In this document: piece after piece, positions 1 through 32,542 of the stretch
Position numbering within the stretch: position 1 is the first letter of the stretch
Layout of the letters: each line of letters begins with the position of its first letter
DNA from: an uncultured Caulobacteraceae bacterium
GTDB lineage: Bacteria; Pseudomonadota; Alphaproteobacteria; Caulobacterales; Caulobacteraceae
Length of the DNA stretch: 32,542 nt
Assembly (NCBI GenBank): GCA_964246615.1
Contig: CAXTRP010000001.1
Location: 1 to 32,542, forward strand
Reading direction: 5' to 3'
Made by a program: the position numbers and the translations under genes
Notes under the pieces: generated by a model
What the model was told of the DNA's origin: nothing
What the model saw: the letters and a program-made list of their open reading frames with translations, nothing else
Databases searched by the model: none

Positions 1-1976
1 CTCTCCGCGAGCGCGCCCTCGATCGCGGGCGCCGTCTGCCCGAACGCGGCGACGCGCATGCTCCGCGCCGTCCCCAAGCCCAGGATCCGGGTGTTGCGCA
101 CGAACGTCACCTGTAGCCCATCGACCGCCGCCGCCCTGACCAGCTTGGTGGGATCGACCTCCCGCAACTCGCCCTGCTTGGACCGGACCGCCAGGTGCTG
201 GCCGGCGGCGAACATGCCGGGCACGTTCGCCGCGGCCACGGCCGACGCCACGCGCCGATCAATGGTCTGGGCATGCCCATCCCGGCACGTCGCCTCGATC
301 CATGACGCCGCCTCCATTGCACCCAAGGACGGCTTGGCGGCGATCGCCTCACGCCATCGCCTTGATTGCGCCCAGTCGCGCTCCGGGCCGATGACGATGG
401 CCATCACGTCGTCGACCGTCCGGCGGTAATGGTCGATGCACATGCGTGTGGCGGCCGCCGGCTCGATGCCGGTTGCGACGGCGAAGGAATGCTCGATCCG
501 GGCGACGCCCCCGGCCGCCGCGGCCTTGCGGAGGGGCCCCATGGCTGAATCGTATGCGGCCTGGAACGCGGCGGGGTAGGCGGACACGGCATACGGGTCC
601 TCGCGCCCGTCGATCCACGCCGTCCCGCCCGGGGCGGCCGGGAACCAGTGGCTGGCCTCCCACCCTTCCAGGGCGTCCGGCTCGGGGCGGCTAGCCGAGA
701 CCGCCGCCGCCAGGTGCTTGTCGATCACCGCCTGCAGCACGCCCGTCGCGGCCGCCAGGCAATCGCGTCGCAGGCCGGCTGACTGATCCGCGTCGAGGCC
801 CGCCAATGGGAAGGCGCCGGCGTCGTAGTGGTTGACCGGGGCCGGGAAGTGCGGGGCCAGCGTTCCGGCGCAAGCCGCCGTCGGCGTGCGGACGATGCGG
901 GCATCATCGACCCTGCCGTTCCGGACGCGGGCGGCTTCGGCATCGAAGGTCGCGACCACGGTATGGCGGATGCGCTCCACCGTAACCGGGATCTGCCGGG
1001 CGGCCGCCGCCATGCACGCCTGCCGCAATCCCCGCGCCACCTGCGCCGATGCCGGCGAGCCGGCCAGCGCGACGGCGTAGGGTCCCAGGAGGCCGCGGCA
1101 GTCGATGTCCGGAGGGAGGACGACGTCGGTGGCGGCACGCCGCGCCAGCGCATCCGCCAACTGCGCTTGGAGCCTCGGACCGGCCGCCTTGAACCTGGCC
1201 CTGAGCCGATCCTGGAACGCCGCATCGAGGGGCTCGAACCGGAGCGGAGCGAGCTGCTCACCCGGGAGGATGGAGCGCGCCAGCTGCAGCCCGGCGATAT
1301 CGCCCACCCTATCCGTGGCCGCTACCGGCGGGCCGCCCGGCGAGGGCAGGTCCGGGATGGCGGCAAGGTCCGCCAGGCGCCGGACGAGGACGGCGACGAA
1401 CTCATCGCGGTCCTCGATGCAGTGCCGCCACAAGGCCGTCGCGACGTCCGGCATCGGCGAGCCCGCCGCTTGTGCGATCCACCGGCAGTAGGTGATGGGA
1501 GGCGCCGCGGCCTGGGGGAGCACGATCGACCCGGCCGCCTCGACTGCCGCCGTGAGCTTTGCGAAGTGCGCATCGAGCTCGGCCTGCAGGAGCGGTGCCG
1601 CCGCCCGCGCCTTCCCCAGGATCGCTGCCGCGTCAGCGGCCGCCTCCGGGCCGGTCTCCGGGGGGAGCGGCGGCCGGTCCGGTGGCGGATGCAGGGTGCC
1701 CGGGGGCGAGTAGAAGTGGAACAGCGCCGCCTGATCCAGCGTCGGGTCCGACGCCAGCATCGATCTCGTGTAGGCGTGCGTCCGCTCTTGACCGGTCAGG
1801 TCGCGTGGCAGCTCGTCATCGGCCTCGCGGTGGTTGGACGGCGCGATCGGCTGACCAGGCAGTCGTCCCCAGGAAGCATCCACCCCGGGGTTCCCGAGCA
1901 CGAACTCGGCCGATAGCGCGGGCAGCGGCATGACCCCGACGAGCGCGCCCAGCGCAGTGCACCTCAGCCATCGCAT
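1..1976 (-). CDS. Large secreted hypothetical protein, >650 aa, running off the left edge (absent from the ORF track because it has no stop in the window)
   Basis: Manual translation from ATG at 1976 gives MRWLRCTALGALVGVMPLPALSA-EFVLGNPG..., a signal-peptide-like N-terminus, and the frame stays open to position 1. The + ORF 828..1916 is its antisense shadow. Confidence 0.75.
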   Translation of the reverse strand, partial: MRWLRCTALGALVGVMPLPALSAEFVLGNPGVDASWGRLPGQPIAPSNHREADDELPRDLTGQERTHAYTRSMLASDPTLDQAALFHFYSPPGTLHPPPDRPPLPPETGPEAAADAAAILGKARAAAPLLQAELDAHFAKLTAAVEAAGSIVLPQAAAPPITYCRWIAQAAGSPMPDVATALWRHCIEDRDEFVAVLVRRLADLAAIPDLPSPGGPPVAATDRVGDIAGLQLARSILPGEQLAPLRFEPLDAAFQDRLRARFKAAGPRLQAQLADALARRAATDVVLPPDIDCRGLLGPYAVALAGSPASAQVARGLRQACMAAAARQIPVTVERIRHTVVATFDAEAARVRNGRVDDARIVRTPTAACAGTLAPHFPAPVNHYDAGAFPLAGLDADQSAGLRRDCLAAATGVLQAVIDKHLAAAVSASRPEPDALEGWEASHWFPAAPGGTAWIDGREDPYAVSAYPAAFQAAYDSAMGPLRKAAAAGGVARIEHSFAVATGIEPAAATRMCIDHYRRTVDDVMAIVIGPERDWAQSRRWREAIAAKPSLGAMEAASWIEATCRDGHAQTIDRRVASAVAAANVPGMFAAGQHLAVRSKQGELREVDPTKLVRAAAVDGLQVTFVRNTRILGLGTARSMRVAAFGQTAPAIEGALAE

Positions 1977-2041: not shown

Positions 2042-2075
2042 GGAGGAGCGCATCCGCGCGGGAACGCGCCCCTCC
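2042..2075 (-). other. 14-bp hairpin capping the GGYNN array (RNA 3' end or processing structure)
   Basis: The minus strand reads GGAGGGGCGCGTTC-CCGCGC-GGATGCGCTCCTCC: 14 pairs including G-U wobbles, with no U-tract. Confidence 0.7.
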
Positions 2076-2138
2076 GCCACACCTAGCCGCACCATACGGG
2101 ACCTTTCCCCGCTGGACCGGACCCCGCCAAGCCTCGCC
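2074..2138 (-). ncRNA. Array of 13 tandem GGY-NN pentamers; putative guide RNA (VIPR-RNA-like)
   Basis: The minus strand reads GGCGA GGCTT GGCGG GGTCC GGTCC AGCGG GGAAA GGTCC CGTAT GGTGC GGCTA GGTGT GGCGG. Ten of 13 units have a perfect GGY and 3 have one mismatch. The array is intergenic, about 90 nt downstream of the RAMP-like gene. Confidence 0.75.
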
Positions 2139-2230
2139 GGGTCCGGCTTCGTAGCGGTCATCGCACACCCCGGGCAACTCGCGCGAAGCGCGTGTCGGAA
2201 CGGCGACCGATGGACCGGCCGTCATCGCCG

Positions 2231-2827
2231 TCACAAGCACTGGCCGCTGCCCGCCGGCATCGGTTCGGCCCAGAACCTACCGAACTTCGGCCGCCAGTCA
2301 CCGAGACCGATCTGCTCGCCGGCGACCACGACGAACCTGCGGATCTCCTGGGGGTCCAGGATCGATGGCAGGTAATCCACCACCAGCTCCGCCGACCAAT
2401 CCGTGAACTTCGGCCTCGTGCGCATGATCCGGCTGCCGCCGACGCGTACCCCGACCCGCAGGCGGAAGCGACCATCCGCCCACAGCGCGGCCGGGTCCGA
2501 TGGACCATCGTAGCGAAGGCGGAGGTCATCCCTCACGACCAGCCCAGCGCGCGCCTTCGCAGCGCGCCTTTCCTGGCCCGCCGCCCTGGTCAGCGACGCC
2601 TCCATCATCTCGCCCGGGATGCAGGGCGAGCCGGAGCTGGTGTACATGCTCCCCAGGAACTCGAGCTCGGCTAGACGAAGGTGGTCCGCCTCAGTCTTCC
2701 GCCGCCGGCCCGCGACCTCCGCAATCGCACGGGCGTGCTCATCCAGTGGATCCGCGAGGCGCCCGGAATGCATGAGCAGGGGTGCGGCGGACGTGATCTC
2801 GAAGCGCAATGACCGGTAGCCGCTCAT
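2231..2827 (-). CDS. Stand-alone Cas7/RAMP-fold-like protein (Vipr-like), 198 aa
   Basis: Starts MSGYRSLRFEITSAAPLLMH, with GAGG upstream. It has PCIPGEMMEASL (cf. the RAMP PxIPGSSLKG motif), RIMRTRPKF-DW, and a C-terminal Gly-rich loop IGLGDWRPKFGRF. Confidence 0.75.
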   Translation of the reverse strand: MSGYRSLRFEITSAAPLLMHSGRLADPLDEHARAIAEVAGRRRKTEADHLRLAELEFLGSMYTSSGSPCIPGEMMEASLTRAAGQERRAAKARAGLVVRDDLRLRYDGPSDPAALWADGRFRLRVGVRVGGSRIMRTRPKFTDWSAELVVDYLPSILDPQEIRRFVVVAGEQIGLGDWRPKFGRFWAEPMPAGSGQCL

Positions 2828-3128
2828 GTTCGCTGCCTCGCTGAACGACTGGGGTGAGTCGGACGACGTCGCGCACCTCAGGGCGCGCAGTGGCGGCATA
2901 TCTTCGCGCCCTGAGGGCGGTGGTGGTGAACGCGTGGCACGGTGCGCACAGCACGGTCAGCGCATCGACGCGATCGCGATCCCATCGGCCGGGCTGCGGA
3001 TAGAACCGATGGTGGACGTCGAGGTCACGCCGGGCGTTGCAGAGCCGGCAACTATGGCCGTCGCGTCGCAGCGCGCGTAGTCGAAGCGCCCTCCAACCCG
3101 GGCTCGCGAGATAGTCCTCGTAGGTCAT
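2739..3128 (-). CDS. Small Zn-binding HNH endonuclease, about 129 aa
   Basis: MTYEDYLASPGWRALRLRALRRDGHSCRLC...LDVHHRFY...LTVLCAPCH carries the CxxC, HH and CxxCH motifs. The 3' end overlaps the start of the RAMP-like gene by 89 nt. Confidence 0.85.
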   Translation of the reverse strand: MTYEDYLASPGWRALRLRALRRDGHSCRLCNARRDLDVHHRFYPQPGRWDRDRVDALTVLCAPCHAFTTTALRARRYAATARPEVRDVVRLTPVVQRGSEHERLPVIALRDHVRRTPAHAFRAPRGSTG

Positions 3129-3232
3129 CGGGTTGCCCCGCCGGATGCGAGCCTTGGCGTCGATCGTCGCCCGCGACACGAGCAGCAGGATTGTCGTTGG
3201 ACATGCATGCGCGTCACCACCCATCACCCGTG

Positions 3233-3246
3233 TCGACTATAATCGA
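3233..3246. promoter_or_regulatory. Near-palindromic operator TCGACTATAATCGA containing a perfect TATAAT
   Basis: It is a 12/14 palindrome between the divergent HNH and XRE genes and resembles controller-protein C-boxes (GACT-N3-AGTC). Confidence 0.45.
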
Positions 3247-3282
3247 TGTCCCGGCTCACGCCAATCGGTGTCCGTGCTGCGG

Positions 3283-3549
3283 ATGGATCTATGTGGACTC
3301 GTTGGGCGGAACGTACGGCGTGAACGCCTGGCGGCCGGTATGACCCAGGAGGACCTCGCTCATCGCACCGGGTGGGACCGCACCTACATCAGCGACATCG
3401 AGCGGGGCATCCGCAATCCGTCGGTGCGCTTGCTGGAGGATGTCGCCACCGCCCTTGGGCTCCACCCCGCGCTGCTCCTGTTCGAGGAGAAAGAGGCAGC
3501 AATCGTACAGGCGGCGTTGCTGGACCCAGCGGATGGCTCTTCCCCTTAG
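3283..3549 (+). CDS. XRE-family HTH transcriptional regulator (controller-protein-like), 88 aa
   Basis: VGRNVRRERLAAGMTQEDLAHRTGWDRTYISDIERGIRNPS is a typical HTH_3 signature. Confidence 0.92.
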   Translation: MDLCGLVGRNVRRERLAAGMTQEDLAHRTGWDRTYISDIERGIRNPSVRLLEDVATALGLHPALLLFEEKEAAIVQAALLDPADGSSP

Positions 3550-4890: not shown

Positions 4891-5115
4891 TCAACTCACT
4901 CGGAATACTCCCGTCTCGGCCAACAAGCTAGTCACTACCTCCAACTGCAGCGCCCTTCGCCGATCCGAGAGCACGACCACTGCATGGGAGGTCGGATACA
5001 TTGCGGTATCCTGGTGCACCTCGACCCAGGCGCTGGCCGACTGTTCAGAGACCTTGGCCTGGAAGTCGAACGACGGCTGGTCGTTGTTCCCCTTGGATCT
5101 GTCGCGCTGCATCAA
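4891..5115 (-). CDS. Small hypothetical protein coupled to the deaminase gene
   Basis: 74-aa ORF whose GTG start overlaps the deaminase TGA stop (GTGA). Confidence 0.5.
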   Translation of the reverse strand: MMQRDRSKGNNDQPSFDFQAKVSEQSASAWVEVHQDTAMYPTSHAVVVLSDRRRALQLEVVTSLLAETGVFRVS

Positions 5116-6716
5116 CGTCCTCCCGTTGGGGCGGTCGTGACAGCCGCCCGTTCGATCTCACCCATCTCCTTTGCAACACGCAACTCGTATGCCACGAAGC
5201 TGTCGAGCGGCTGCCGGAAGACTGGTTCGGCGCTCGCCGGATCGCTGGCCCTCGCGTGGCCATCGGACTTGCGCTCCGATCGCTGCCGGAACAGCCGCGC
5301 GAAGTGTTTCGGGGCAACGCCGCCGTATTGCCTGAACAGCGTGCGGTTTTCGCCCCTCGGTTCCTCCGTGAGCGAATCGTGATGCAGCTTCGTCGCCATG
5401 CTCTTCTTGTAAGGTTGGATGAAGACAACTTCGGCGATCCCGGCTGCGACAATGTGCCTGGCGCAGTTGTGGCAGGGATATACCGTCGTGTACAGCGTCG
5501 AGCCGACGAGCGAGTGCCGGCCGTCGCGCGCCACCGCGAGGATCGCCTCCATCTCTGCATGTATGGACCGCGAGAACTCGATGACCCAATCCAGGCGGCT
5601 CCCCCGGATCGCCTCCGCGACCTTAGCGTCTGGGACGTCGTCCTTGATGATCTCTGCCTTGCGTAGATTGCGGAGCAGCTCCGCCCTAATCTCGTCCTTC
5701 TCGTGGTCATTGTGGCAGATCCTCTGGCCGAACCTGAAGCAACGATTGTCGCGGTCGGCGGCACTCCCCTTTGCGTCTGAGCCCCACTGGTCATCCTCGC
5801 CATAGAGGCCGCCGCCAGGCTTGGGAACGTCGTTCCAGCCAACCGATATCAGGTCGCCCTTGGTGTCGAAGATCGCCGCTCCGACTTGGCGCGACATGCA
5901 GGCCGATCGGTGCGCGACCGCGTCCGCCTCGTGCATCGCCTGCTCGGCCCGAGTGGGAGTGTGCACGCCGACGTCGAAGACGATGTCGAGGAATCGATTT
6001 ACCGTGCGAAGAAGCTCCGTGTCGTTGTCCCCGTCGTTGCGGATGAAGAAGTCCGCATCGCCGAACACGGAGCGAGTCTTCTGGCCGTGGGGGATCACCT
6101 CTCCCTGGTCGCGATCTAGTATCGCGCCGGCTCCGGCATCCGACGAGCCGTCCTCCTTCATGCGGCGTAGGCGGACGTAGTCCGGGGCGAACACTCCGAC
6201 AACGACGAGCATGTCCTTGTAGACGTCCCTAAGCAGCGCTAGCTCGGCATCGTTCTTCAGGCTGTCGATGACGCATACCCGGCGCACCCTCGCGGCACGC
6301 GGTGGCGCTTCTCCGCTGATCCTCTCGAGGCCGGCACCGGAGGTCCGGATCTCATTGATCGCTGCCACCGCCCGTTTCGCGAGGTAATCGGGTCCGTGCC
6401 GCTTCCGCAGTTCGTTGCCGATCATCTGGAGCGACTCGATCCGGTCGTTGCCCCGAAGGTCGGTGGTCGGCGACAGGTCCACGAGATGTGCGTCCTCCTG
6501 CAGGAACCGGCTCACCTTGATGATGTTGCCGGCCTCGTAGCGGAAGCGATCGGCGAGGATGTCCCGGATTATCACTGCAGTCTTCGACACGCCCGAGGCG
6601 ACCGGACCGACCATTGCGATAACCAGCTCAATCGACAGGCGCGACTTGATGTCGTCACGCGCATCGTTTTTGTTGGCTGACCCCTCTACGACTGCTGCTA
6701 TCGCCGGATTTCCCAT
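5112..6716 (-). CDS. Anti-phage dCTP/dCMP deaminase (P-loop kinase plus Zn-deaminase; AvcD/Dcd type), about 534 aa
   Basis: N-terminal P-loop-like VGPVASGVSKT and IDSLKN; C-terminal SACMSRQVGA, GWNDVP, SIHAEMEA and PCHNC Zn-binding motifs. The likely start is MGNPAIAA (6716), not 6962. Confidence 0.9.
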   Translation of the reverse strand: MGNPAIAAVVEGSANKNDARDDIKSRLSIELVIAMVGPVASGVSKTAVIIRDILADRFRYEAGNIIKVSRFLQEDAHLVDLSPTTDLRGNDRIESLQMIGNELRKRHGPDYLAKRAVAAINEIRTSGAGLERISGEAPPRAARVRRVCVIDSLKNDAELALLRDVYKDMLVVVGVFAPDYVRLRRMKEDGSSDAGAGAILDRDQGEVIPHGQKTRSVFGDADFFIRNDGDNDTELLRTVNRFLDIVFDVGVHTPTRAEQAMHEADAVAHRSACMSRQVGAAIFDTKGDLISVGWNDVPKPGGGLYGEDDQWGSDAKGSAADRDNRCFRFGQRICHNDHEKDEIRAELLRNLRKAEIIKDDVPDAKVAEAIRGSRLDWVIEFSRSIHAEMEAILAVARDGRHSLVGSTLYTTVYPCHNCARHIVAAGIAEVVFIQPYKKSMATKLHHDSLTEEPRGENRTLFRQYGGVAPKHFARLFRQRSERKSDGHARASDPASAEPVFRQPLDSFVAYELRVAKEMGEIERAAVTTAPTGGR

Positions 6717-7264
6717 CTTGGATAGCTTACATTTGCGGCGCGCGAGATGCCAGCATGTCCGTCGAGTTACGGCAGTCTCACTGCCGGGCGGTTCTGGCCC
6801 GCAACGAAGGTCCGGGCGCGCCATCAACCGGCGGCACGAGGTCGGTGGGTGCCATCGAGTTTGGTGAGGTATCCCCCGGTCGCAATTCTGGTATCGATTC
6901 AACCGGGGGTGCGCCAGCAGGAGGTTCAGAGTCGCCTCACGGCCAGGCAGATCCAGTGGCATGGTCGAGGTCGAGGTAAGTCAGCCACCGGGCGTTCAAC
7001 GCATAGCTCCTGTTGAACGTCACGAAGCCGTTCGCGGCGAACAGGACGCAAGTGACGTTGTTCTAGCCGGCCCAGGCTTCCTTGCTGCCGAGCAGGCATA
7101 CGATCCCAGCCCCTGGGATGCCGGGCGGCTAGCACGCGATCTCGATAGTCGGTGGTGCCGTGTGCTGGATAGGGAGGAACACGTCCATTCAGTTCTTCGG
7201 CTGCGCGCAGCGTGGTGGCTGAGAGCGCGCCCCATCAGTGCAATGGCCCAGCACCAGGCGACGG

Positions 7265-15731: not shown

Positions 15732-15853
15732 CGGACCCTCCCTGGGGGACGCATTCCCCCTTCCGGATGGTCGATGGCCGACCCCCACCGATCGCGGTTG
15801 GCCAAGCGCCCGCGCCATGGTCTGTTGTCGGAACGATGGAGCGGCGTGGATCG

Positions 15854-18800
15854 ATGACCCAGGACGGACTCGGCGGCAGCGTCGCCGACCAGCACACGCC
15901 ACCACTGCAGGCCGTAGCGGGCGCAGACCCGGCCGGAGCAAGCCGGCCCGCTACGCCCCGGGCACGGATCACCGCCCGGTTCCAGCCGGCCCTGAACGCG
16001 GCACTGTGGCAGAACCACGTGCCCGTGCTTTCCGAGCTGGCGATCGCCAACGCGAGCGATGAGCCGCTGGGGGACATCGAGATCGAACTCGGTTCACAGC
16101 CGCCGGTGGTGCGGGCGCGGACGTGGCGGGCTGCGGGCCTCGCATCCGGCCAGATACTCGCCTTCGACGACCTGGACATCCCCATCGATGGCCCATTCCT
16201 GTCGGGCCTGTCCGAGGCGACCCGCGGCACGGTGTCGCTCACAGCCCGCAGCGAGGGCGAGATCGTCGGCGAGTTCACGCAGGACATCCGCATCCTCGCC
16301 TTCAACGAGTGGGGCGGCACCGCGGGCATCCCCGACATCCTCGCCGCCTTCGTGCAGCCGAACGACCCGGCGGTCGCCCGCATCATCCACGCCGCCTCGG
16401 ACCTCCTGCGGGCGAGCGGCAAGTCAGACTCGTTCGAGGGCTACCAGGGCAGCAGCAAGACCCGCGTCTGGGAACAGGCGCAGGCGATCTGGAACGCGGT
16501 CTGCCGAATGGATCTGCGCTACATCAACCCGCCACCCTCCTTCATCGGCGGCGGCCAGCGCATCCGCACCGCGCGCCAGATCGGCGAGGAGCGGCTGGCG
16601 ACCTGCCTCGACCTGGCGGTGCTGTTCTGCTCCTGCCTGGAGGCGGCCGGGCTCCGCCCGCTGATCGTGCTGCAGCGGGAGCACGCCTTCGCCGGCGTTT
16701 GGCTGTCGAAGGGCGACTTCGGCACATCCACTGTCGACGATGCGCCGGGATTGCGGACCCGACTCAAGCTCGACGACCTCAAGCTGTTCGAGACGACCGG
16801 CACCACCCATGCCCGCAAGCCAAGCTTCCAGCAAGCGACGCTCGCCGGGGCGGCCCATGTCGAGCCGGAGAAGGACGCCGAGTTCGAGGGGTTGATCGAC
16901 ATCCATCGTGCCCGCCAACGGCGCATCCTGCCGCTGGCGAGTGCGGCAACCGGCTACGCCTTCCAGGCCGGCGCCACGGACGCGGCCGAACTCGCGCTGC
17001 CGGCCATCGAGGACGCGCCACCGCTTCGCGACGACATGCCGACGGCCGACGAAGCGCCGCCCGCGAGCGCCGAGGACCGGCTCGACCGCTGGCGGAAGCG
17101 GCTGCTGGACCTCTCCGGCCGCAACCGGCTGCTGAACCTGCCGGCGTCCGGGCGCCAGGTGCTCTGGGTGGATTGCCCGGATGCGGCCAAGCTGGAGGAC
17201 CGGCTGGCGGAAATGCGTGGCAAGGGCCGCGCCGCGCCGCTGAAGTTTCGCCCCTGGCCCGACCTGATGGGCGATGCCGACCCGCGCAGCGCGGCACTGC
17301 ACCGCAACCGGCTGCAGGAGGACGCCAACCTCGCCTTCGCGCGGGAAACGATGGCAAAGGGCGAGCTGGTGGTGGGACGGGGCGAAGCGTCCCTGCAGGC
17401 GTCGCTCACCGACATCTACCGCAAGGCGCGCGCCGACCAGCAGGAAGGCGGCTCGAACACCCTGTTCCTGACCATCGGCACATTGCTGTGGCGCCGGGAG
17501 GACCGCGAGACGCCATACCGGGCGCCGCTGATCCTGGTGCCGGTCGTGCTGGAGCGGCCGAGCGTGCGCTCGGGTTTCGTGCTGCGGGTGCACGACGACG
17601 AGACCCGGCTGAACTCGACGCTGCTCGAGATGCTGCGCCAGGAGTTCGCCCTCCAGTTCCCGACGCTGGAGGCCGAACGGCCGCCGGAGGACGAGGCCGG
17701 GTTCGACGTGCCCGCCATCATGGACACCTTCCGGTCCAAGCTGCGCGACGTCCGGGGCTGGGAGGTCCGCGACGAGGTGGCGCTGACCACCCTGTCGTTC
17801 ACCAAGTTCCTGATGTGGAAGGACCTGGCGGACCGGGCGGAGGCGTTGCGCGGCAACGTCGTCTCGCGCCGGCTGATGGATGGGCCGGCACCCGAGGTCG
17901 CCTTCGAGTCCGGGCGTGGCGGCGAACGCCATCCGATTGGCGGCGCGCTCGACGATGAGTTGGCCGCGGCGGACCTTTACTGCCCGTTGGAGGGCGACTC
18001 CTCGCAGTTGCGGGCGGTGGCGCGGGCGGCGGCCGGCGAGAGCTTCGTGCTGATTGGGCCGCCCGGCACGGGCAAGAGCCAGACCATCGCCAACATCATC
18101 GCCAACACGCTGGCCCAGGGCCGGACGGTCCTGTTCGTGGCGGAGAAGCGGGCGGCGCTGGAGGTGGTGCAACGGCGGCTCAAGAGCGTCGGGATGGCCG
18201 ATTTCTGCCTTGACCTGTTCTCCAGCAAGGTCAGCAAGACCGCCGTGCTCGGCCAACTGGAGCGCGCGCAATCCGTGTCCGAGGCGGATGGCGGACGGGA
18301 CTGGGCCGCTGCCAAGGCGGACCTCGCGAGCCTTCGCGAGGAGCTGAACGGCTACGTGCGCGAGCTGCACAAGCCGGGGCGGAACGGTTGGACGCCGTTC
18401 CGCGCGATCGGCGCCGTGCTGCGGGCCGCCGATGGCGGCGTCCCCGAGATCGCACTGGCATGGCCCCACTCCGACGTGCACGACGCCGGGGACTGGCGGC
18501 GGCTGGTCGAGGCGGTCGAGGAAGCGCGGGAGGTGCTGCGCCGGGCCGGCGACGCCGTGCGCGCGCCGGCGCTGGCGGGCATCGAGCAGGCGGAGTGGTC
18601 GCCGGTCTGGCAGACCCGCCTGCTGGAAGCGGCGCGGCACGCGGCCATGCGGCTGGACGAGTTGGAGCAGGCGATCGGCGCCGCCTGCCGGACGCTGAAG
18701 CTCAGCGACTACGCCCGTTCGCGGCCCAGCTTGCAGCGATTGGTGGCGCTGGCAGACCTGTTGTCCGACCCGATCGGCCCGGAGGCGGCATGGGCGCTGT

Positions 18801-21800
18801 CCGAGGGCGCCGCGGACCTGCACGAGGCGATCCAGGCAGTGGCCACCCAGGCGAGCCGGCATCGCGAAGTGCGCCAGGCGCTCACGACATCATGGCGACC
18901 CGGCGTATATGCCCTGCCACTTGCGGCGCTGCGGTCCGAGTGGCGCGCGGCCGGCGAGAAGTGGGCGTTGCCGCGGAGCATGGCGCAACGGGCGGTGCGC
19001 AAGCGGCTCGCGTCCGAGGCGGACGGCCCGGTGCCGGAGGATTGCGGCCCCGACCTCGACCGGCTGCTGGAGATCCAGCAGATCGACGCATCCGTCGCGG
19101 CCACCCCGCACACGGCGGCGCTGGGTCGGGCGTGGCGCGGGATCGACACGGATTTCCTGCGGATGCAGGCGGCCCATGAGTGGGGTCGGCGCATCCGGTC
19201 GGCCACGGCGTCGTGCAGGCAGGACGCGGCGGACTTGGCCGGGCTGCGGGCCCTCATCCGCCAGATGGTCGGCGAAGCGGCCGACCTCCTGGCGCCGTCC
19301 GGCTCGGCCGGAGCGGCCCTGGCTGGCCTGACCGACGCCTGGGCGGCTGCGGAGGGGGCACTGGAGGCCGTGGCGGCGCTCGCTGGCAGCCCGGCCGCTC
19401 GCCTGGTGCCCGAGGACCGGGCGGACTGGCTGGCCGCTGTGTCGCGGCACCTGACCGGGTGGTCCTCCGCCGCGCGGTCGATCCAGGAGTGGTGCGCTTG
19501 GCGCGGGGTGTCGCAGTCGGCCGAGGCGCAAGGCTTGGGGCCGCTGGTCCGGGCCATGGAGGACGGCATCGTCGGGCCAGGCGATGCCGTCCGCGCCCTG
19601 GAGGCGAACTACGCCCGCTGGTGGATCGACCTCGCCGTCGATGCGGCCCCCAGGCTGCGCGGCTTCGTCGCGGCCCGGCACGAGACCCGGATCGAGCGCT
19701 TTCGCCTCCTGGACGCGCGCATGCTCGAGCTGTCGAGCCGGGTCGCCCGTGCCCGGATCGCCGCCGCCATCCCGAACGCGGTGCAGCGCCACGCCGACCC
19801 CGAATACGCCGTGCTCACCCGCGAGCTCGCCAAGCGCCAGCGCCACTTGCCGGTCCGCCAGTTGGCCTCGCGCATGCCGAAGGCGCTGCGCCGGCTGACG
19901 CCCTGCCTGATGATGAGCCCGCTCTCCGTGGCGCAGTATCTGCCGGCGGATGCGGAGCCATTCGACCTCGTGATCTTCGACGAGGCCTCGCAGATCACGA
20001 CCTGGGACGCCATCGGTGCGGTCGGGCGCGGGCGCCAGGTGATCGTCGTTGGCGACCCGCGGCAGCTACCGCCGACCAGCTTCTTCGAGCGGCGCAGCGG
20101 CGAGGAGGACGGTGCCGCGGTCGAGGTGGAGACGCACGACCTGGACTCGATCCTCGACGAGTGCCTGGGCGCCGGCATCCCGAACGTCGAGCTGACCTGG
20201 CACTACCGCAGCCGGCACGAGAGCCTGATCGCGTTCTCCAACCAGGTCTATTACGGCGGCCGCCTGGTCACCTTCCCGTCGCCCGTGACGAGAGACGACG
20301 CGGTGTCGTTCCGTCATGTCGCCGATGGCGTGTATGCCCGGGGCGGCGCGCGCACCAACGAGCGCGAGGCCAGGGCCGTGGTTGCCGAGGCGCTAGCCGT
20401 CCTCCGTTCGGCCGCGGCCCGGTCGCTCGGTATCGTCACGTTCAACGCCGAGCAGCAGGGGCTGATCGAGGATCTGTTCGACAAGGCGCAGCGCGATGAC
20501 CCGGCACTCGAGCGGCACTTCGCCGAGGACGCGCCCGAGCCCGTGCTGGTCAAGAACCTCGAGGGCATCCAGGGCGAGGAGCGCGACGTGATGCTGTTCT
20601 CGCTCACCTACGGCCCGGACGCGACGGGGCGCATCGCGCTCAACTTCGGCCCCCTCAACCTGTCGGGCGGCGAGCGGCGGCTCAACGTCGCCGTGACCCG
20701 GGCGCGCGAGCGGCTGGTGGTGTTCGGCAGCGTGCGGGCGGAGCAGTTGGACCTGTCGCGGACCGGCGCCGTGGGCGTGCGCCACCTCAAGCAATTCCTG
20801 TCCTTCGCCGAGCACGGCGCGCGGTCGTTCGCCACGGCCGATCGGGGGTCCCTGGGTGATCACGAGAGCCCATTCGAGGCGGAGGTGGCCGAACGGCTTC
20901 GCCGGCTGGGATGGACGGCGCACCCGCAGGTCGGCGTGTCGGGCTTCCGCGTCGATCTCGGCATCGTCGATCCGGATGCGCCAGGGGCCTACCTCGCCGG
21001 CGTCGAGTGCGACGGCGCCACCTACCACCGCGGCGCCACCGCGCGGGATCGCGACCGGCTGCGACAGCACGTGCTCGAGGCGCTCGGCTGGCGCATCTTG
21101 CGCGTCTGGTCGACCGACTGGTGGACCAACGCCGCGCGGGAGGCGGACAGGCTGCACATGCAGCTCGGCGACGCGCTGGGAAGGGCGCGCGCCGAGAGGG
21201 CCGAGAGGGCCGAGCCGACGGGCGCACCGCCTGACGCGGGCGACCTGCTAGTCGACGGAACCGAGACGCTGGACGACGGCGGAACGGTGTTGCCGCCCCT
21301 GGACGCCGATCTCGTGCCCTATGACGACGCGGGGCCGGTGCCAGAGCCTGAACTCTTCTACGATCCCGCTTACCGGGATCGCCTGGGCGCGCTCGTCGCG
21401 GGGCTGTTGCGGAAGCAGGGGCCGCTGCGAGAGGACCGGCTGGTCCAGGCCATTGCCCGCCTGCACGGCTTCGGCCGGGCCGGCCGTGAGATCAGGGACC
21501 GGGTGATGGCCGTCCTGCCGGGCACCAGCGCGGTCACGACGGAGGACATCGGCCGCTTCGTTTGGCCGCCAGCCATCGACCCCGCTTCCTGGAACTCCTT
21601 GCGCGCACCGGTTGTTGGCCGTGCAGTCGATCCGGCGGAGATTCCGATGCCGGAGCTGGTCGCACTGGCCCGGCGCTGCATGTCGCCCGGCATGACGGAT
21701 GACACCATTCTCATCGCGATGCGCGATGCCTGCGGCCTACAACGGCTACGTGAGACCGCCCGGAACCGCTGTGTCGCGGCGCTCGCGGCCGCGCGGGGTC

Positions 21801-21814
21801 AACCTAACCCTTGA
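15854..21814 (+). CDS. DUF4011 / SF1 (Upf1-like) helicase / Vsr-like nuclease / DUF3320 protein (Hhe-type anti-phage)
   Basis: RWRKRLLDLSGRNRLLN (DUF4011), Walker A GPPGTGKSQT, DEASQ, GDPRQLPP, WHYRS, QGEERD, RRLNVAVTRAR, then a restriction-endonuclease-fold tail ESPFE...RVDLG...ECDG...WSTDW. The start is uncertain (15767-15854). Confidence 0.92.
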   Translation: MTQDGLGGSVADQHTPPLQAVAGADPAGASRPATPRARITARFQPALNAALWQNHVPVLSELAIANASDEPLGDIEIELGSQPPVVRARTWRAAGLASGQILAFDDLDIPIDGPFLSGLSEATRGTVSLTARSEGEIVGEFTQDIRILAFNEWGGTAGIPDILAAFVQPNDPAVARIIHAASDLLRASGKSDSFEGYQGSSKTRVWEQAQAIWNAVCRMDLRYINPPPSFIGGGQRIRTARQIGEERLATCLDLAVLFCSCLEAAGLRPLIVLQREHAFAGVWLSKGDFGTSTVDDAPGLRTRLKLDDLKLFETTGTTHARKPSFQQATLAGAAHVEPEKDAEFEGLIDIHRARQRRILPLASAATGYAFQAGATDAAELALPAIEDAPPLRDDMPTADEAPPASAEDRLDRWRKRLLDLSGRNRLLNLPASGRQVLWVDCPDAAKLEDRLAEMRGKGRAAPLKFRPWPDLMGDADPRSAALHRNRLQEDANLAFARETMAKGELVVGRGEASLQASLTDIYRKARADQQEGGSNTLFLTIGTLLWRREDRETPYRAPLILVPVVLERPSVRSGFVLRVHDDETRLNSTLLEMLRQEFALQFPTLEAERPPEDEAGFDVPAIMDTFRSKLRDVRGWEVRDEVALTTLSFTKFLMWKDLADRAEALRGNVVSRRLMDGPAPEVAFESGRGGERHPIGGALDDELAAADLYCPLEGDSSQLRAVARAAAGESFVLIGPPGTGKSQTIANIIANTLAQGRTVLFVAEKRAALEVVQRRLKSVGMADFCLDLFSSKVSKTAVLGQLERAQSVSEADGGRDWAAAKADLASLREELNGYVRELHKPGRNGWTPFRAIGAVLRAADGGVPEIALAWPHSDVHDAGDWRRLVEAVEEAREVLRRAGDAVRAPALAGIEQAEWSPVWQTRLLEAARHAAMRLDELEQAIGAACRTLKLSDYARSRPSLQRLVALADLLSDPIGPEAAWALSEGAADLHEAIQAVATQASRHREVRQALTTSWRPGVYALPLAALRSEWRAAGEKWALPRSMAQRAVRKRLASEADGPVPEDCGPDLDRLLEIQQIDASVAATPHTAALGRAWRGIDTDFLRMQAAHEWGRRIRSATASCRQDAADLAGLRALIRQMVGEAADLLAPSGSAGAALAGLTDAWAAAEGALEAVAALAGSPAARLVPEDRADWLAAVSRHLTGWSSAARSIQEWCAWRGVSQSAEAQGLGPLVRAMEDGIVGPGDAVRALEANYARWWIDLAVDAAPRLRGFVAARHETRIERFRLLDARMLELSSRVARARIAAAIPNAVQRHADPEYAVLTRELAKRQRHLPVRQLASRMPKALRRLTPCLMMSPLSVAQYLPADAEPFDLVIFDEASQITTWDAIGAVGRGRQVIVVGDPRQLPPTSFFERRSGEEDGAAVEVETHDLDSILDECLGAGIPNVELTWHYRSRHESLIAFSNQVYYGGRLVTFPSPVTRDDAVSFRHVADGVYARGGARTNEREARAVVAEALAVLRSAAARSLGIVTFNAEQQGLIEDLFDKAQRDDPALERHFAEDAPEPVLVKNLEGIQGEERDVMLFSLTYGPDATGRIALNFGPLNLSGGERRLNVAVTRARERLVVFGSVRAEQLDLSRTGAVGVRHLKQFLSFAEHGARSFATADRGSLGDHESPFEAEVAERLRRLGWTAHPQVGVSGFRVDLGIVDPDAPGAYLAGVECDGATYHRGATARDRDRLRQHVLEALGWRILRVWSTDWWTNAAREADRLHMQLGDALGRARAERAERAEPTGAPPDAGDLLVDGTETLDDGGTVLPPLDADLVPYDDAGPVPEPELFYDPAYRDRLGALVAGLLRKQGPLREDRLVQAIARLHGFGRAGREIRDRVMAVLPGTSAVTTEDIGRFVWPPAIDPASWNSLRAPVVGRAVDPAEIPMPELVALARRCMSPGMTDDTILIAMRDACGLQRLRETARNRCVAALAAARGQPNP

Positions 21815-24169: not shown

Positions 24170-27100
24170 TTAATGCACCGGCCTGCGCTGCTGCGCTTCC
24201 TCGCTCGCCAGCCGCTCGGCCATCATCGAGCACCCATGGGACCGGTAGGGACACGCGGAGCAGCCGCAGCAGAAGTCCGTAGCGCCCTTGGACGGGGGCG
24301 GGGCGGCGGCCTGGCCCTCTAGCGCCTCCGCCAGGAAGTGCTGGCTGAATGGATACACACGAAGGTTCTTGCCCCAGAGCCGCTTACGGTAGCCCTGCTC
24401 GCCGGGGGCCAGGATGTCCCGCAGGCGCAGCATGCGCCCCACCCATTCCGGCTGCTGGAACTCCGGGATGTCCGTCGTGCTGGACTGGCCGTAGTGGGCG
24501 TCCACCAGGCGCTTCATCTCGAGGATGACGTGGGTCGGGCTGATCTCGGCGTATCCCTCCCTGGCCAGGGTCATCGCGGCCTCCTGCAGCACCTCGCCTG
24601 GGTCGTCGGGGTTGAAGGCGGCCCCGCCGGTCCTGGACAACGCAGCTTCCAGGAAGGCGCCATGGCTCGGTTTCGAGGAGACGCGAGCAAGCACCCGCAG
24701 CGGCGCGGCGATCTCCTCGGATCGCTCGGACGCTGAGGGGCATACGTCCGCGTAGGTCGCCGCTATGTCGGCCACGTGGTCGAACGTCCAAGCGTGCAGT
24801 TCGTCCCTGAGGGCCTGCAGCCGCTCTGCCGGTGTCGGGGCAAGGGCGCGCCGCGCGTCCGCCTGGCTGGGCGGCATCTTCCGCGTCTGCACCCGGATCA
24901 TGCGCGTGCCGAGGATGCTGTCGACGCCCGTGGTGTTGTTGATGACCTTGATGCCGAATCCGTTCAGGCGCTCGACCTTGAAGTTCTTGCTGGCATCGAC
25001 CCAGATCTTGGTCGCGGTATCACGATTGTAGCAGACCTTGAGCCACTGGACGAACTCGCCGAAGCCATTCCCGTCCTTGCCCGCCTTCGCGCCGATCGAC
25101 TCCAGGTCGTCGAGCACTGCCAGCCCCCGGGTCTCGTGGATGAGCCGGGCCGCGGCCGGCGCGCTCACCTGGCCCACGATGGTGCCGTTCGCGGAGAGCT
25201 GGGACATGACGATGCCCGCCGTGGACTTTCCCGACCCCGCCTCGCCGGAGAGCAGCAGCAACGGCAGGGCCTGGAACACCGCCTGGCAGTAGCTCGCCGC
25301 CGCCGTCAGCGCGAGGACCGCGTAGTCCTCCTCGTAGGGCAGCCAGATGGCCGCGCGGAACGCCTGCAGCACGTCTTCCACCATGTCGCCGAACGGGCGG
25401 TGCGGAATCCCGTCCCCGCGCTTCTTGCCGGCCAGCCAGCCCTCGATCGACGGCCATGACCAACTGGGGTGGGCCGGGGCCTTGGGCAGGCCATCGATCA
25501 GCGTGCCGTCGGAGAGGCGGAGGACCCGCTTGTCCGACGGGGTCCCCTTCGGCGACGGCATCTCGACGGCGTGCAGCTGCTGCCCGTCGGACCTGACCAC
25601 GACCGTCTCGACGTGCTCGACCCTGGTGGCCTTCCCATCCTTGTCGATCTCGATCCCGACCACGAGCGTGTCCACCGGGTAGTATAGGTTGCCCTTGTGG
25701 AAGGCCCGGCCGATGTCGAGCGGGCGGTAGGCCTTGCGGCCCAGGCCGTCGTCGTCCCCGGGCTTGATGTCGTCCTCGATCTCGGTCGCCTCGGCGAGAG
25801 CGGCGACCAGGTCGGCGGCGGTGGCGCCGCCGGCGAACGCGTCGCGCCATGTCGTCGCCGGCGGCCGCAGGCGACGCACCGGCTTGCCCGCGGAACGGTG
25901 GACGAGCCGGGCGATGCGGTCGCCCCGCGCGTCGGCCGCGGTCGCCACGTAGATAGCGTCCCAGGAATCCCAGAACGCCGGTGACGACCACTCCTTCGGC
26001 ACCGCCTCGATGCCCGTGGAGGCGATCACCTGGGCGGCCAGTCCGTCCCCGGCGCCCCGAACCTCCTGCCACGTGCGCCATAGGTCCGGCATGTCGCACA
26101 CGATGACGGCGGGGAGCGGCCCGGCCGAAGCGTGGAAGGTGGACTCCTCCTTTCCCGACGACCAGCAGGCGGCCTTGGGGTTCCGGGTCACGCCGGGAAC
26201 GTTTGCCTTGCAGAAGATCGCGAGCTGGGTGCCGTCGTGCGAGCGGAGCGGGAAGGTGAGCGCATCGGAATAGACCAGCCCGGTCTTCGAGCTCTCGTAC
26301 GGCTTGTCCAATCCGAAGCCGAAGTGGTCCAACGTCTGCTGCACCAGCCCGCCCGTGACGGTGAGCCATTCCATGGCCGCGGCGTTTTCCCGGAGACGCT
26401 TGCGCCGGCTGGCCTGGGCCTCGAGGTTGGCGGCCCTCCTGCGCTCCTCCTTGGCGGCTTCCAGCTTGGCTAAGTCGCGGGGGTTCGATATCCCGAAGTC
26501 CAGGCCCGACTTGATGGTCGCGTTCGCTTCCTGAAGCGGCAGGCCGCAGCCGACGGCGGCCTGGGCGAGACGATGAGCAGCCGTCGACCGATCGATGGCT
26601 CCGGCGCCGACCAGTCCGCCAATCCTCGACGCCGCCTTGTTCAGCGTGTCGTTCCGCGTCCCCTCAATGGCGCTGAGGACGGTCAGGACCTCACCGTTCA
26701 GCGCCGCGGCGGCGTACGCGGAGGCGTCAACCGCGGGATCCCACCGAGTAGGTGCCCGTGATGGTGCCGGCGGTGCGGCCGCCGAGTCCATGGCCTCATA
26801 CAACCAGGCCGGGGCGGGCGCAGCCGTGATCTCCGTGGGTGCCCGACCCGAGGCCCATTCATAGGCCCGGCCCGACGCGTGCCGTGACGGCGGCGCCACG
26901 GCGCCACCGCCTTCGGACCGCACGTCCAGTCCTACGGCGAGCTTCGCGACGCTGTTCCGCACAATGCGGCCTTCCGGGTAGCGGAAGTACAGGTGCCGGC
27001 CGCCCCCGCCGGTCCTGCATTCCACGGTGTCGTGCAGCCCGCCGCGGCGCGCGACCAGCGCGGCGAGGGAGGCTTCCCCCTCGGCACCGTCGACGTCGAG

Positions 27101-27370
27101 CACCCAAACGTCGCTCCCAGGGCCCGTCGCGATGCCCACGTTGCCGGGTTGGCGGAAGGCGGCTTCGATGACATCCGGGGAGGTGGTGCCGCTCTTGAAT
27201 CCATGCTCGGCGCGGGGGTGCTTCCCAGGCTTCGAGCAGTCCGCCCTGCCGCACGTGCAGCCGCCGGCGGCTGCGATCCCATGGATGGGAACCACCCGCC
27301 AGCCCAACTCGCCATAGGCGAGTGCAGCGGCGGCAACGGAGACCCCGCGCAGCCTCTCCTTACCACCCAT
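24170..27370 (-). CDS. Bifunctional DNA primase/polymerase (AEP Prim-Pol) fused to a P-loop helicase, about 1066 aa
   Basis: NVGIATG...VLDVDG, TGGGGRHLYF, LDVRSEGG..VAPPS, PriCT-like GTRNDTLNKAA, Walker A GEAGSGKST, Walker B VLDDLE and a C-terminal Cys cluster. The ATG is 1 nt after the upstream TGA. Confidence 0.88.
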   Translation of the reverse strand: MGGKERLRGVSVAAAALAYGELGWRVVPIHGIAAAGGCTCGRADCSKPGKHPRAEHGFKSGTTSPDVIEAAFRQPGNVGIATGPGSDVWVLDVDGAEGEASLAALVARRGGLHDTVECRTGGGGRHLYFRYPEGRIVRNSVAKLAVGLDVRSEGGGAVAPPSRHASGRAYEWASGRAPTEITAAPAPAWLYEAMDSAAAPPAPSRAPTRWDPAVDASAYAAAALNGEVLTVLSAIEGTRNDTLNKAASRIGGLVGAGAIDRSTAAHRLAQAAVGCGLPLQEANATIKSGLDFGISNPRDLAKLEAAKEERRRAANLEAQASRRKRLRENAAAMEWLTVTGGLVQQTLDHFGFGLDKPYESSKTGLVYSDALTFPLRSHDGTQLAIFCKANVPGVTRNPKAACWSSGKEESTFHASAGPLPAVIVCDMPDLWRTWQEVRGAGDGLAAQVIASTGIEAVPKEWSSPAFWDSWDAIYVATAADARGDRIARLVHRSAGKPVRRLRPPATTWRDAFAGGATAADLVAALAEATEIEDDIKPGDDDGLGRKAYRPLDIGRAFHKGNLYYPVDTLVVGIEIDKDGKATRVEHVETVVVRSDGQQLHAVEMPSPKGTPSDKRVLRLSDGTLIDGLPKAPAHPSWSWPSIEGWLAGKKRGDGIPHRPFGDMVEDVLQAFRAAIWLPYEEDYAVLALTAAASYCQAVFQALPLLLLSGEAGSGKSTAGIVMSQLSANGTIVGQVSAPAAARLIHETRGLAVLDDLESIGAKAGKDGNGFGEFVQWLKVCYNRDTATKIWVDASKNFKVERLNGFGIKVINNTTGVDSILGTRMIRVQTRKMPPSQADARRALAPTPAERLQALRDELHAWTFDHVADIAATYADVCPSASERSEEIAAPLRVLARVSSKPSHGAFLEAALSRTGGAAFNPDDPGEVLQEAAMTLAREGYAEISPTHVILEMKRLVDAHYGQSSTTDIPEFQQPEWVGRMLRLRDILAPGEQGYRKRLWGKNLRVYPFSQHFLAEALEGQAAAPPPSKGATDFCCGCSACPYRSHGCSMMAERLASEEAQQRRPVH

Positions 27371-27371
27371 C

Positions 27372-29459: not shown

Positions 29460-29578
29460 CTCGAATCCTCGCACGAGGAGTATCGGCACCAACCCAGCGG
29501 TTGCGCCGATCTCTCGGATTGCCTAGGTTCGAGCGAGATCTCCGGGTCCAATCGGAATCCTCCCTCGCCTAGGGATGC

Positions 29579-30981: not shown

Positions 30982-32316
30982 TCAAGCTCCCCCGGCCGCG
31001 ACGGGGCTCCCGCCACCGGGCCGCGCGGCCGCCACCAGTTTGTCGACGAACGCGGACCACAACTCGAGCGCGCCCCGCTTCTCCGCGAAGTATTCCCACA
31101 GGTCATAGACCGTGTCCGTCACCGTGCGGGGGGCGTGGTCCAGGATCTTGGAGATGACGTGCTTCTGGACTCCGAGGCGCCCGAGGTTGGTCGCACACGA
31201 CCTGCGCAGGTCGTGGATCGTCCACGCCGGCATCGGCCCGCTCCCCCTCGCCTCGCGTGCGGTGGCGATGAGCGCGTCCACGTCGCGCTTGGCTTTCGAG
31301 TACCCGCTGATCGAGGTGGAACCGTTCGTCGTGAAGACGAATTCAGCGAGGCCGCCGCCGGGCGCGGAGCAGCGCGGCACTGCCTGGATCATGGTCGCGA
31401 CCTTCACGGGAATCGGCACCGCGCTCCGCCGCTTCATCTTCGTCAGGTTCATCCAGACCGACGCATCCATGTCGAGGTCCGCCCAGCGCATCTGCGCTAC
31501 CTCGGTCCGGCGCTGGCCGAGCAGCAACGCGACCTGCATGAATGTCCCGAACGGGTAGCCGAGGGCGTCCATCGCGGCCCAGGCGTCCGCGATCTCGGGA
31601 TCGGACAGGACGCGCGACCTCTTCTTCTCCTCACCCGGCTTCTCGACCATGGCGCACGGGTTGGCCGGCACCAGGTCCTGGCGGACCGCCCAGCCGAAGA
31701 GGGCGCTGAGAGCGGAGAGCACGCGGTTGGCGGCGATCGGACCGCCCCTCGCGGCCGTTCGCCCGCCGGCACGGGCGGGAACCTCGCCGGACGCCACCGC
31801 CATCACGAGCGTCCTGACGTCCGCGCGCGTGATCGATGCGATGGGACGGTCGCGCCAGCGCGGCAGGACGTGGTTGTCGAGGTTGCGCCGCGTCTCCGCC
31901 GCATAGCGCGGCGACGGCTTCTTCCCCTTCCGCACCGGCATGCCGCCCGACATGAACGATTCGACAGCCGCGCCGAAGGTCCGGGCCGCTGCCGCATCCG
32001 CGGCGTGGGCCGCCTGCGAACGGGTGGCCGCCGGATCACTCCCGGACGTGAGGGCGACCTGCAGGTTCCCGGCCTCCCTCCTGGCCGCCTCGAGCGACAC
32101 CTCGGGGTATGTGCCGAGCGTCATCCGCACCTGCCGCCCGGCGTCGCGTTCGCGATAGTAGAACATCCAGGTCTTACGCCCGCGGGGATGGCGCCCGGTC
32201 GGCAGCGCGACGCGCAACCCGAAGCCGGGGAGCGTCGCGTCGTAGTAATCGGTCCGCCGGCCATCCCGCGCCTGGAGGCGCTGCACGGCCGCGTCCGTCA
32301 ACCTCAGCCTCGGCAC
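30982..32316 (-). CDS. Tyrosine integrase, P4-like, with an arm-DNA-binding N-domain
   Basis: YYDATLPGFGLRV...KTWMFYY...MTLGTYPEVSLEAAR; catalytic GQRRTE, HDLRR, LDH and VY. Confidence 0.96.
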   Translation of the reverse strand: MPRLRLTDAAVQRLQARDGRRTDYYDATLPGFGLRVALPTGRHPRGRKTWMFYYRERDAGRQVRMTLGTYPEVSLEAARREAGNLQVALTSGSDPAATRSQAAHAADAAAARTFGAAVESFMSGGMPVRKGKKPSPRYAAETRRNLDNHVLPRWRDRPIASITRADVRTLVMAVASGEVPARAGGRTAARGGPIAANRVLSALSALFGWAVRQDLVPANPCAMVEKPGEEKKRSRVLSDPEIADAWAAMDALGYPFGTFMQVALLLGQRRTEVAQMRWADLDMDASVWMNLTKMKRRSAVPIPVKVATMIQAVPRCSAPGGGLAEFVFTTNGSTSISGYSKAKRDVDALIATAREARGSGPMPAWTIHDLRRSCATNLGRLGVQKHVISKILDHAPRTVTDTVYDLWEYFAEKRGALELWSAFVDKLVAAARPGGGSPVAAGGA

Positions 32317-32481: not shown

Positions 32482-32533
32482 CACCAAACTACGAATCTGG
32501 GGGTTGGAAGTTCGAGTCTTTCCGGGCGCGCCA
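32482..32533 (+). mobile_element. att site: displaced 3' fragment of tRNA-Arg(ACG)
   Basis: CACCAAACTACGAATCTGGGGGTTGGAAGTTCGAGTCTTTCCGGGCGCGCCA contains the anticodon loop CTACGAA, the T-arm and an acceptor end with CCA. The 5' half and D-arm are absent. Confidence 0.88.
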
Positions 32534-32542
32534 GTGATACAG

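What the first reader, a model, noticed from the sequence alone, without database searches (positions are those of the whole stretch)
2074..2138. Decoded putative target of the pentamer guide
Seen: the NN string carries 26 variable bases. Inference: if every third target base is skipped, as I recall for VIPR, the target pattern is GAnTTnGGnCCnCCnGGnAAnCCnATnGCnTAnGTnGG or its complement. A 2-of-3 code aligned to codons would be blind to wobble-position escape. I saw no full match in this window by eye, so a target on a competing phage, plasmid or element is plausible. Three units have degenerate GGY (AGC, GGA, CGT), which may reflect tolerance or decay.
Basis: inference. Interest (0 to 1): 0.75.

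Follow-up and report, generated by a model that had tools for sequence, protein, structure and literature searches.

The report
Island-borne VIPR guide, target unfound
This repeat sits behind a VIPR protein gene and a nuclease-like gene on a mobile defence island and is likely a working guide RNA, predicted to read foreign DNA two bases in every three, but no matching target was found, so it is a further example of a known system whose enemy is still unidentified.

Summary
The NN string and the three odd triplets are as reported. The upstream protein is a Vipr: its family matches SUSP1 Vipr at E 1e-41. An HNH gene precedes it, on a roughly 46-kb tRNA-Arg defence island also found in a host of another family.

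Two corrections. The last GG lies in the 3' hairpin stem, so the guide probably has 12 units (24 bases), possibly 14 with two 5' units. The odd triplets look tolerated rather than decayed: 0 of 112 guide-and-tail bases differ from the relative, against 20 of 144 flanking bases.

No target was found. The host genome scored at shuffle level. Three searches of 401 genomes gave nothing within 3 mismatches. The best viral hits were 20/24, a chance level.

Guides of eight related HNH-Vipr loci, read by the same rule, spell an Ig-domain motif found in viral genes (best 24/26). That supports the one-base skip in this clade. The scan has noted VIPR loci on other DNA before. Verdict: new member of a known kind.

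The parts
2079..2138 (-). vrRNA repeat tract, units 1-12 (24 informative bases); scaffolds of units 6, 7 and 9 are AGC, GGA, CGT
   Evidence: identical in L006; no NN change listed in contigs of 4 runs, 18 rows not shown
2139..2148 (-). possible two further 5' units (AGC-CG, GAC-CC)
   Evidence: in register, one-off scaffolds of common types, unchanged in L006; not proven
2042..2078 (-).
   Evidence: z -1.5; unchanged in L006; 55 of 83 arrays end GG+purine after the last full unit
2231..2827 (-). vipr gene, 198 aa RAMP-fold protein
   Evidence: family profile hits PDB 36pp SUSP1 Vipr, E 1.2e-41; 28.8% to phiSUSP1 protein; model pLDDT 93; best fold rows are CRISPR RAMPs, Z up to 10.7, rmsd 3.6 over 145 residues
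2739..3128 (-). HNH-like accessory (vap) gene, 129 aa, overlapping the vipr start
   Evidence: PHROG HNH families E 8e-10; homologue in 43 of 65 related Vipr loci, mostly directly upstream
3133..3549 (+). divergent XRE-family HTH regulator ORF (true start probably later)
   Evidence: Pfam HTH_3 E 2e-16; inside the block shared with G425
3..1970 (-). unannotated ORF downstream of the guide, running off the contig
   Evidence: no Pfam (longer frame 3-2240), PADLOC or PHROG match; inside the 93% identical block in G425
5112..6962 (-). anti-phage dCTP deaminase-like gene (island context)
   Evidence: PADLOC dCTPase E 1.5e-149
15767..21814 (+). DUF4011 helicase-nuclease, PDC-S37/Hhe-like (island context)
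24170..27493 (-). Prim-Pol replication gene of the island
   Evidence: Pfam PF09250 E 3.6e-40
30982..32316 (-). tyrosine integrase of the island
32482..32538 (+). 57-bp attachment repeat matching the 3' part of tRNA-Arg(ACG)
   Evidence: second copy at G425:3019979-3020035 inside a tRNA-Arg gene

Best explanation
The repeat lies directly behind an HNH-like gene and a vipr gene on an integrated defence island and is likely the single guide RNA of a host-side VIPR system, predicted to bind foreign double-stranded DNA by pairing two bases and skipping one, with the HNH protein likely nicking or cutting at the bound site. Shown: anatomy, Vipr identity, conservation of the guide, absence of a self target. 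Inferred from the published SUSP1 work and from related guides: transcription, one Vipr protomer per pentamer, the one-base skip. The informative part is most likely units 1-12 (pattern GAnTTnGGnCCnCCnGGnAAnCCnATnGCnTAnGT on the non-paired strand), perhaps with CGnCCn in front. The final GG is probably tail stem. The three odd scaffolds are likely tolerated. The target is most likely a gene of a phage or other mobile element not held, or not held closely enough, in the collections searched.
For: Vipr identity. SUSP1 H17, R39, E71, M72, R138, D177, W178 and R179 are kept. Arrays lie beside vipr in 53 of 66 loci, counting the window's own, and the HNH gene in 43 of 65. Guide and tail: 0 of 112 differences from L006 against 20 of 144 in noncoding flanks (Fisher p 6e-6) and 18 of 199 third codon positions of vipr. 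This holds although the two hosts share only 69-74% in the two best housekeeping matches and fall in different families. Defence neighbours. Rule control in the same clade: 8 guides spell (S)TG[TVLA][IL][ST]GTP in antisense codon frame. Their 16-base core has 45 viral hits, 40 of 45 in an open frame with the skip on the wobble base; 18 of those 40 pass the Pfam He_PIG cut-off; best 24/26. No self target.
Against: SUSP1 K33 and K82, whose mutation abolished repression, and K88 align to A36, G84 and A90 here (pairwise alignment). The tail hairpin is not more stable than shuffles. Expression and binding were not tested. The strains share most differences with L006, so they are not independent comparisons. 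In 2 of 4 runs the unit-7 scaffold has drifted further, GGA to GAA.
Confidence: 0.78

Rival explanations
1. The guide is functional but aims at a conserved protein-coding motif shared by many unrelated phages and tolerates several mismatches, so no single near-perfect protospacer exists.
For: Related HNH-clade guides spell the He_PIG motif. The guide is unchanged across two host families. TYAxGxxGGP recurs in open frames of viral hits, 92 printed of 120 loci, several being tail proteins.
Against: Those seven residues were fixed by the search pattern. No family reached more than 19/24 in that scan. The tail-spike family tested has no variant reading like the guide among 10 homologues. The other two sub-patterns favour the opposite strand.
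Confidence: 0.3
2. The guide is a relic: its target is gone and the odd scaffolds are early decay.
For: No target found. 3 of 13 odd scaffolds is in the upper range (12 of 83 arrays reach that fraction). One further scaffold change in 2 of 4 runs.
Against: 0 of 112 changes against about 14% in the flanks. vipr and HNH frames are intact in both genomes. Odd scaffolds make up 129 of 874 internal units in the family, 115 of them single-base. The first two downstream SUSP1 arrays carry 2 of 15 and 4 of 14, and native guides 2 and 3 are reported to silence (matching them to those arrays is my inference).
Confidence: 0.07
3. This clade reads with another spacing or register, or the odd units are looped out, so the decoded pattern is wrong.
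For: K33 and K82 equivalents are not conserved. Skips 0 and 2 were tested only in the host genome, the G425 island and the fetched Vipr loci, not in the large collections.
Against: The one-skip reading gives codon-aligned, protein-conserving sense for 8 guides whose Viprs are 40-48% identical to this one and share its HNH gene.
Confidence: 0.08
4. The guide regulates a host or island gene (self target or tripwire).
Against: Best host match 18/24, shuffles 17-20. Best in the G425 island 16/24. None within 3 of 20 in the G425 chromosome. The host assembly is only 86% complete.
Confidence: 0.05

Closest known systems
SUSP1 (type II) VIPR system, 10.64898/2026.04.26.720920 and .720927
   Same: Homologous Vipr (E 1.2e-41); GGY-binding residues kept; GGY/NN tract of 12-14 units ending in a GG cap and a structured tail; occasional odd scaffolds.
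   Different: One guide instead of four; chromosomal island instead of lytic phage; HNH accessory gene; simple predicted hairpin rather than a pseudoknot; K33, K82 and K88 equivalents not conserved; no target identified.
Type III (or V) VIPR systems of the same paper
   Same: Predicted nuclease accessory gene, defence-island setting, single-guide architecture is described for such systems.
   Different: Type could not be assigned: the reference tree and Data S3/S4 were not available to me. The paper's 80% NN-match threshold against IMG/VR is reached here by chance-level hits.
Class 1 CRISPR RAMPs (Csm3, Cmr4, Cas7)
   Same: Fold: top rows are RAMPs, Z 9-10.7, rmsd 3.2-4.4 over 131-163 residues.
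   Different: None of the ORFs scanned against Pfam or PADLOC gave a cas gene in the window; the guide is a pentamer tract, not repeat-spacer.

Membership tests
VIPR | Vipr protein: single RAMP with thumb and G-loop, homologous to described Viprs | tested here: met
VIPR | adjacent noncoding GGY/NN tract of about 9-16 units | tested here: met
   12-14 units, starting 82-92 nt after the vipr stop, same strand
VIPR | conserved structured 3' tail | tested here: inconclusive
   14-bp stem predicted, z -1.5; invariant in L006, so no covariation
VIPR | minimal locus with a vap gene and no CRISPR machinery | tested here: met
   HNH gene overlapping vipr, in 43 of 65 related loci; no cas match among ORFs scanned
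VIPR | target recognised by the 1-nt skip rule | tested here: inconclusive
   no target for this guide; rule works on 8 related guides
VIPR | vrRNA is expressed and bound by Vipr | not testable with these tools
   needs small-RNA sequencing and pull-down
VIPR type III/V | nuclease vap and defence-island location | tested here: met
VIPR type III/V | placement in the published Vipr tree | not testable with these tools
   typed reference sequences (Data S4) not held; only the supplement PDF text was searchable

The most novel reading that the evidence does not exclude
Host-side HNH-VIPR systems use their wobble-blind code to aim at conserved protein motifs shared by many unrelated phages, making one fixed guide a broad, innate-like sensor. 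The rhizobial guides that spell the Ig-domain motif TGTISGTP would be the clear case, and this guide, carried unchanged between two bacterial families, a second with a motif not yet recognised.
Probability: 0.3. Interest if true: 0.7.

Novelty: new member of a known kind. Interest (0 to 1): 0.36.

Why it matters
As it stands it adds one compact HNH-vipr-guide cassette on a defence island that moves between distant alphaproteobacteria, a usable test case for the uncharacterised nuclease-bearing VIPR types. Two by-products matter more. An 80% NN match in IMG/VR is reached by chance for a 24-base guide, so such target calls need nulls. And related guides appear to encode a conserved phage protein motif, which would extend the codon-aligned code from escape-proofing one target to covering many phages.

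Tried and rejected
Host genome, skips 0-3, 12, 13 and 14 units: at shuffle level.
Exact 24-base pattern in IMG/VR: 0. Exact 22-base pattern (units 2-12) in GTDB genomes and JGI metagenomes: 0 and 0.
Up to 3 mismatches of 24: 0 of 401 own-family genomes, 0 of 401 class genomes, 0 of 401 genomes of G425's family (a few genomes recur between sets; backward controls also 0).
IMG/VR sub-patterns: 3, 121, 120, 120 and 12 loci; the three large scans stopped at 58, 48 and 59 of 64 parts. Best scores 20/24, where 2-6 such scores per 120 loci are expected by a binomial estimate.
L073 (20/24) lies in frame in a portal gene whose nearest listed relatives are mycobacteriophages. L003 (20/24, units 5-12 perfect) is antisense to a tail-fibre-like ORF with the skip on codon position 1, in a phage whose polymerase resembles mostly gammaproteobacterial phages. 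Both rejected as chance.
Portal-motif idea: 38 portal loci, best 19/24 (L523; 100 shuffles reached at most 18), but that site is in the prohead-protease-like ORF with the skip on codon position 2, was found post hoc, and is rejected.
Tail-spike motif family: no variant fits.
Guides against all fetched Vipr loci: no convincing cross- or self-target.
Related-locus scan of metagenomes: none confirmed. No relative of vipr in 60 related genomes.
Sequencing runs: no RNA holder listed. A second array only partly like this one in run X1 (13 other letters over 69) was not resolved.
No 16S gene in the assembly.

Full report
Observation. Ten of 13 GGY is the best such window in the whole 3.41-Mb assembly; the best unrelated window has 8. 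The window holds no target: best 15/24.

Identity. The ORF 2827..2231 has 829 homologues among 4237 candidates. A profile of 41 of them (the query and 40 of the 120 listed) hits PDB 36pp, SUSP1 Vipr, at E 1.2e-41. The model (pLDDT 93) aligns best to CRISPR RAMPs. Against the phiSUSP1 protein, H17, R39, E71, M72, R138, D177, W178 and R179 are kept, while K33, K82 and K88 align to A, G and A. The structure paper reports that K33A and K82A abolish repression, so DNA handling may differ or use neighbouring basic residues. An HNH-like ORF (3128..2739) overlaps the vipr start and has a homologue in 43 of 65 related loci. GGY/NN arrays were called in 53 of 66 Vipr loci, the window's own included, 83 of them distinct.

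Setting. The window is the right part of an integrated island. In G425, the genome of locus L006, the same element spans about 46 kb between 57-bp repeats at tRNA-Arg(ACG), 86-94% identical to the window over its shared blocks. Its left part matches G000 contigs C102 and C35. The island carries a type I restriction system, PDC-S39-like and PD-T4-7-like genes in G425, and a dCTP deaminase, a PDC-S37/Hhe-like helicase, Prim-Pol and an integrase here. The hosts are distant. A housekeeping stretch gives 69-74% to G425 in its two best matches and up to 84-87% to same-genus genomes, and G425's family set shares no handle with G000's. One marker puts G000 nearer Caulobacteraceae (82%) than Roseicella (76%) among five named genomes; no sphingomonad was among them. 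The island therefore moved between families (inference). Nuclease partner plus defence island fits the paper's types III and V; I could not assign the type.

Boundaries. In the family, 55 of 83 arrays have GGG or GGA after the last full unit, commonly followed by a hairpin, and SUSP1 arrays end the same way. I therefore read GGC at 2078-2076 as the cap and 12 units as the guide. Two more in-register units with one-off scaffolds (2148-2139) are inside the conserved block and may belong to it.

Tolerance or decay. Against L006, 2149..2038 has 0 of 112 differences, the noncoding flanks 20 of 144 (Fisher p 6e-6), and vipr third positions 18 of 199. Contigs from 4 runs of 4 studies show 27-42 other letters over 325-451 bases but only one listed change in that block, the unit-7 scaffold in 2 of 4 runs. 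Eighteen rows were not shown, and these strains largely share L006's differences, so this is close to one comparison. Odd scaffolds are 129 of 874 internal units in the family, 115 single-base; 19 of 83 arrays have three or more. The first two downstream SUSP1 arrays have 2 of 15 and 4 of 14, and the paper reports native guides 2 and 3 as active; matching them to those arrays is my inference. Tolerance is the better reading, with unit 7 possibly relaxed.

Target search. Host genome: best 18/24, shuffles 17-20; skips 0 and 2 no better. Exact searches were empty in IMG/VR (24 bases), GTDB and JGI metagenomes (22 bases). Three sets of 401 genomes had nothing within 3 mismatches; the tool did find a known 2-mismatch site. 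Five IMG/VR sub-patterns gave 376 loci; the best were two at 20/24, where a binomial estimate expects 2-6 per 120. One is in a portal gene resembling mycobacteriophage portals, the other off-wobble in a tail-fibre-like gene. Both pass the paper's 80% threshold yet are chance-level. These scans cover only some mismatch patterns, three were truncated, and the plasmid and GenBank phage collections could not be scanned with gapped patterns. The target is not found, not shown absent.

Control for the rule. Eight rhizobial and related loci (L029, L032, L033, L034, L036, L038, L046, L051) have Viprs 40-48% identical to this one and the same HNH gene. Their guides differ, yet read antisense in codon frame they all spell (S)TG[TVLA][IL][ST]GTP, the serine position being written TC in five, AG in two, and replaced by threonine in one. 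The 16-base core of two of them gave 45 viral hits, against 3 and 12 for 16-base patterns of the window's guide; this comparison is not a shuffle null. Forty of 45 lie in an open frame with the skip on the wobble base, against 11 in the other frame; the best is 24/26. Eighteen of those 40 pass the Pfam He_PIG cut-off. Host He_PIG loci in two of these genomes matched their own guides at only 14-15/20, while three sites in a different host gene of G1228 match 14 of 16 core bases. I noticed this among 83 arrays after the fact and first named the motif from memory. It supports the one-base skip and codon alignment for this clade. A search for VIPR with Ig-like, phage and guide RNA from 2026 found 0 papers; the preprint's Data S3 was not seen and may list such targets.

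Mechanism. Most likely the operon yields one RNA that is coated by Vipr, one protomer per pentamer; the filament pairs the NN bases to foreign DNA from the tail end, skipping every third base (published for SUSP1), and the HNH protein nicks or cuts there (inference; the paper only predicts this). Confidence 0.78 for the whole, lower for cutting.

Papers seen: 10.64898/2026.04.26.720920, whole held text and passages of its supplement PDF; 10.64898/2026.04.26.720927, parts 1-2 of 6 and passages; 10.64898/2026.10.15.759431, part 1 of 8, section 17 and passages; 10.64898/2026.10.21.760802, passages. Data files S1-S4 and bioRxiv supplements were not seen and bear on type, prior listing and targets. 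Earlier notes of this scan describe VIPR loci on other DNA; none look like this stretch.

Verdict. A real, conserved VIPR guide; the decode is right in principle and slightly off at the ends; the target is unidentified. New member of a known kind, interest 0.36.

Noticed in passing
L029:4574-4623, L032:4568-4627, L033:4568-4607, L034:4574-4618, L036:4581-4625, L038:4579-4628, L046:4580-4624, L051:4580-4639: Guides of eight HNH-Vipr loci from Bradyrhizobium, Mesorhizobium, Pseudolabrys and others decode to the putative-Ig (He_PIG) motif TGTISGTP-like; best viral site 24/26 (L462). Deserves its own study.
   Followed up: partly
L003 and L484 (same record, G426): One complete 47.8-kb phage holds both a 20/24 site for the window's guide and a 20/26 He_PIG site for the L032 guide; probably coincidence, since the first is off-wobble.
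   Followed up: partly
window 1-32542; G425:C1:3019979-3066230: A roughly 46-kb tRNA-Arg defence island with Prim-Pol and integrase, shared at 86-94% between hosts of different families, with swapped cargo (dCTP deaminase here; PDC-S39-like and PD-T4-7-like in G425).
   Followed up: partly
L011-L016: Azospirillum-type loci share a nearly identical short guide of 8-9 units across six genomes; no target sought in genomes.
   Followed up: no
L453, L455, L456 (G1228): Three copies of a host gene, in a stretch that looks PDZ-protease-like by recall, match 14 of 16 core bases of that genome's own guide (L036); possible self-match or chance.
   Followed up: no
window 2067-2135, run X1 record 3: A second array 56 of 69 identical to this guide in the same run; its letters were not seen.
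   Followed up: no
window 3-1970 (-): Large unannotated ORF directly downstream of the guide, with a signal-peptide-like start, travelling with the cassette in G425.
   Followed up: partly
window 27372-29492 (-): 706-aa ORF with a weak C-terminal integrase match (phrog_1, E 5e-4) between Prim-Pol and an excisionase-like ORF at 29738-29989.
   Followed up: no
L018, L020, L067: Very long tracts of 26-31 pentamers, possibly fused or staggered guides.
   Followed up: no
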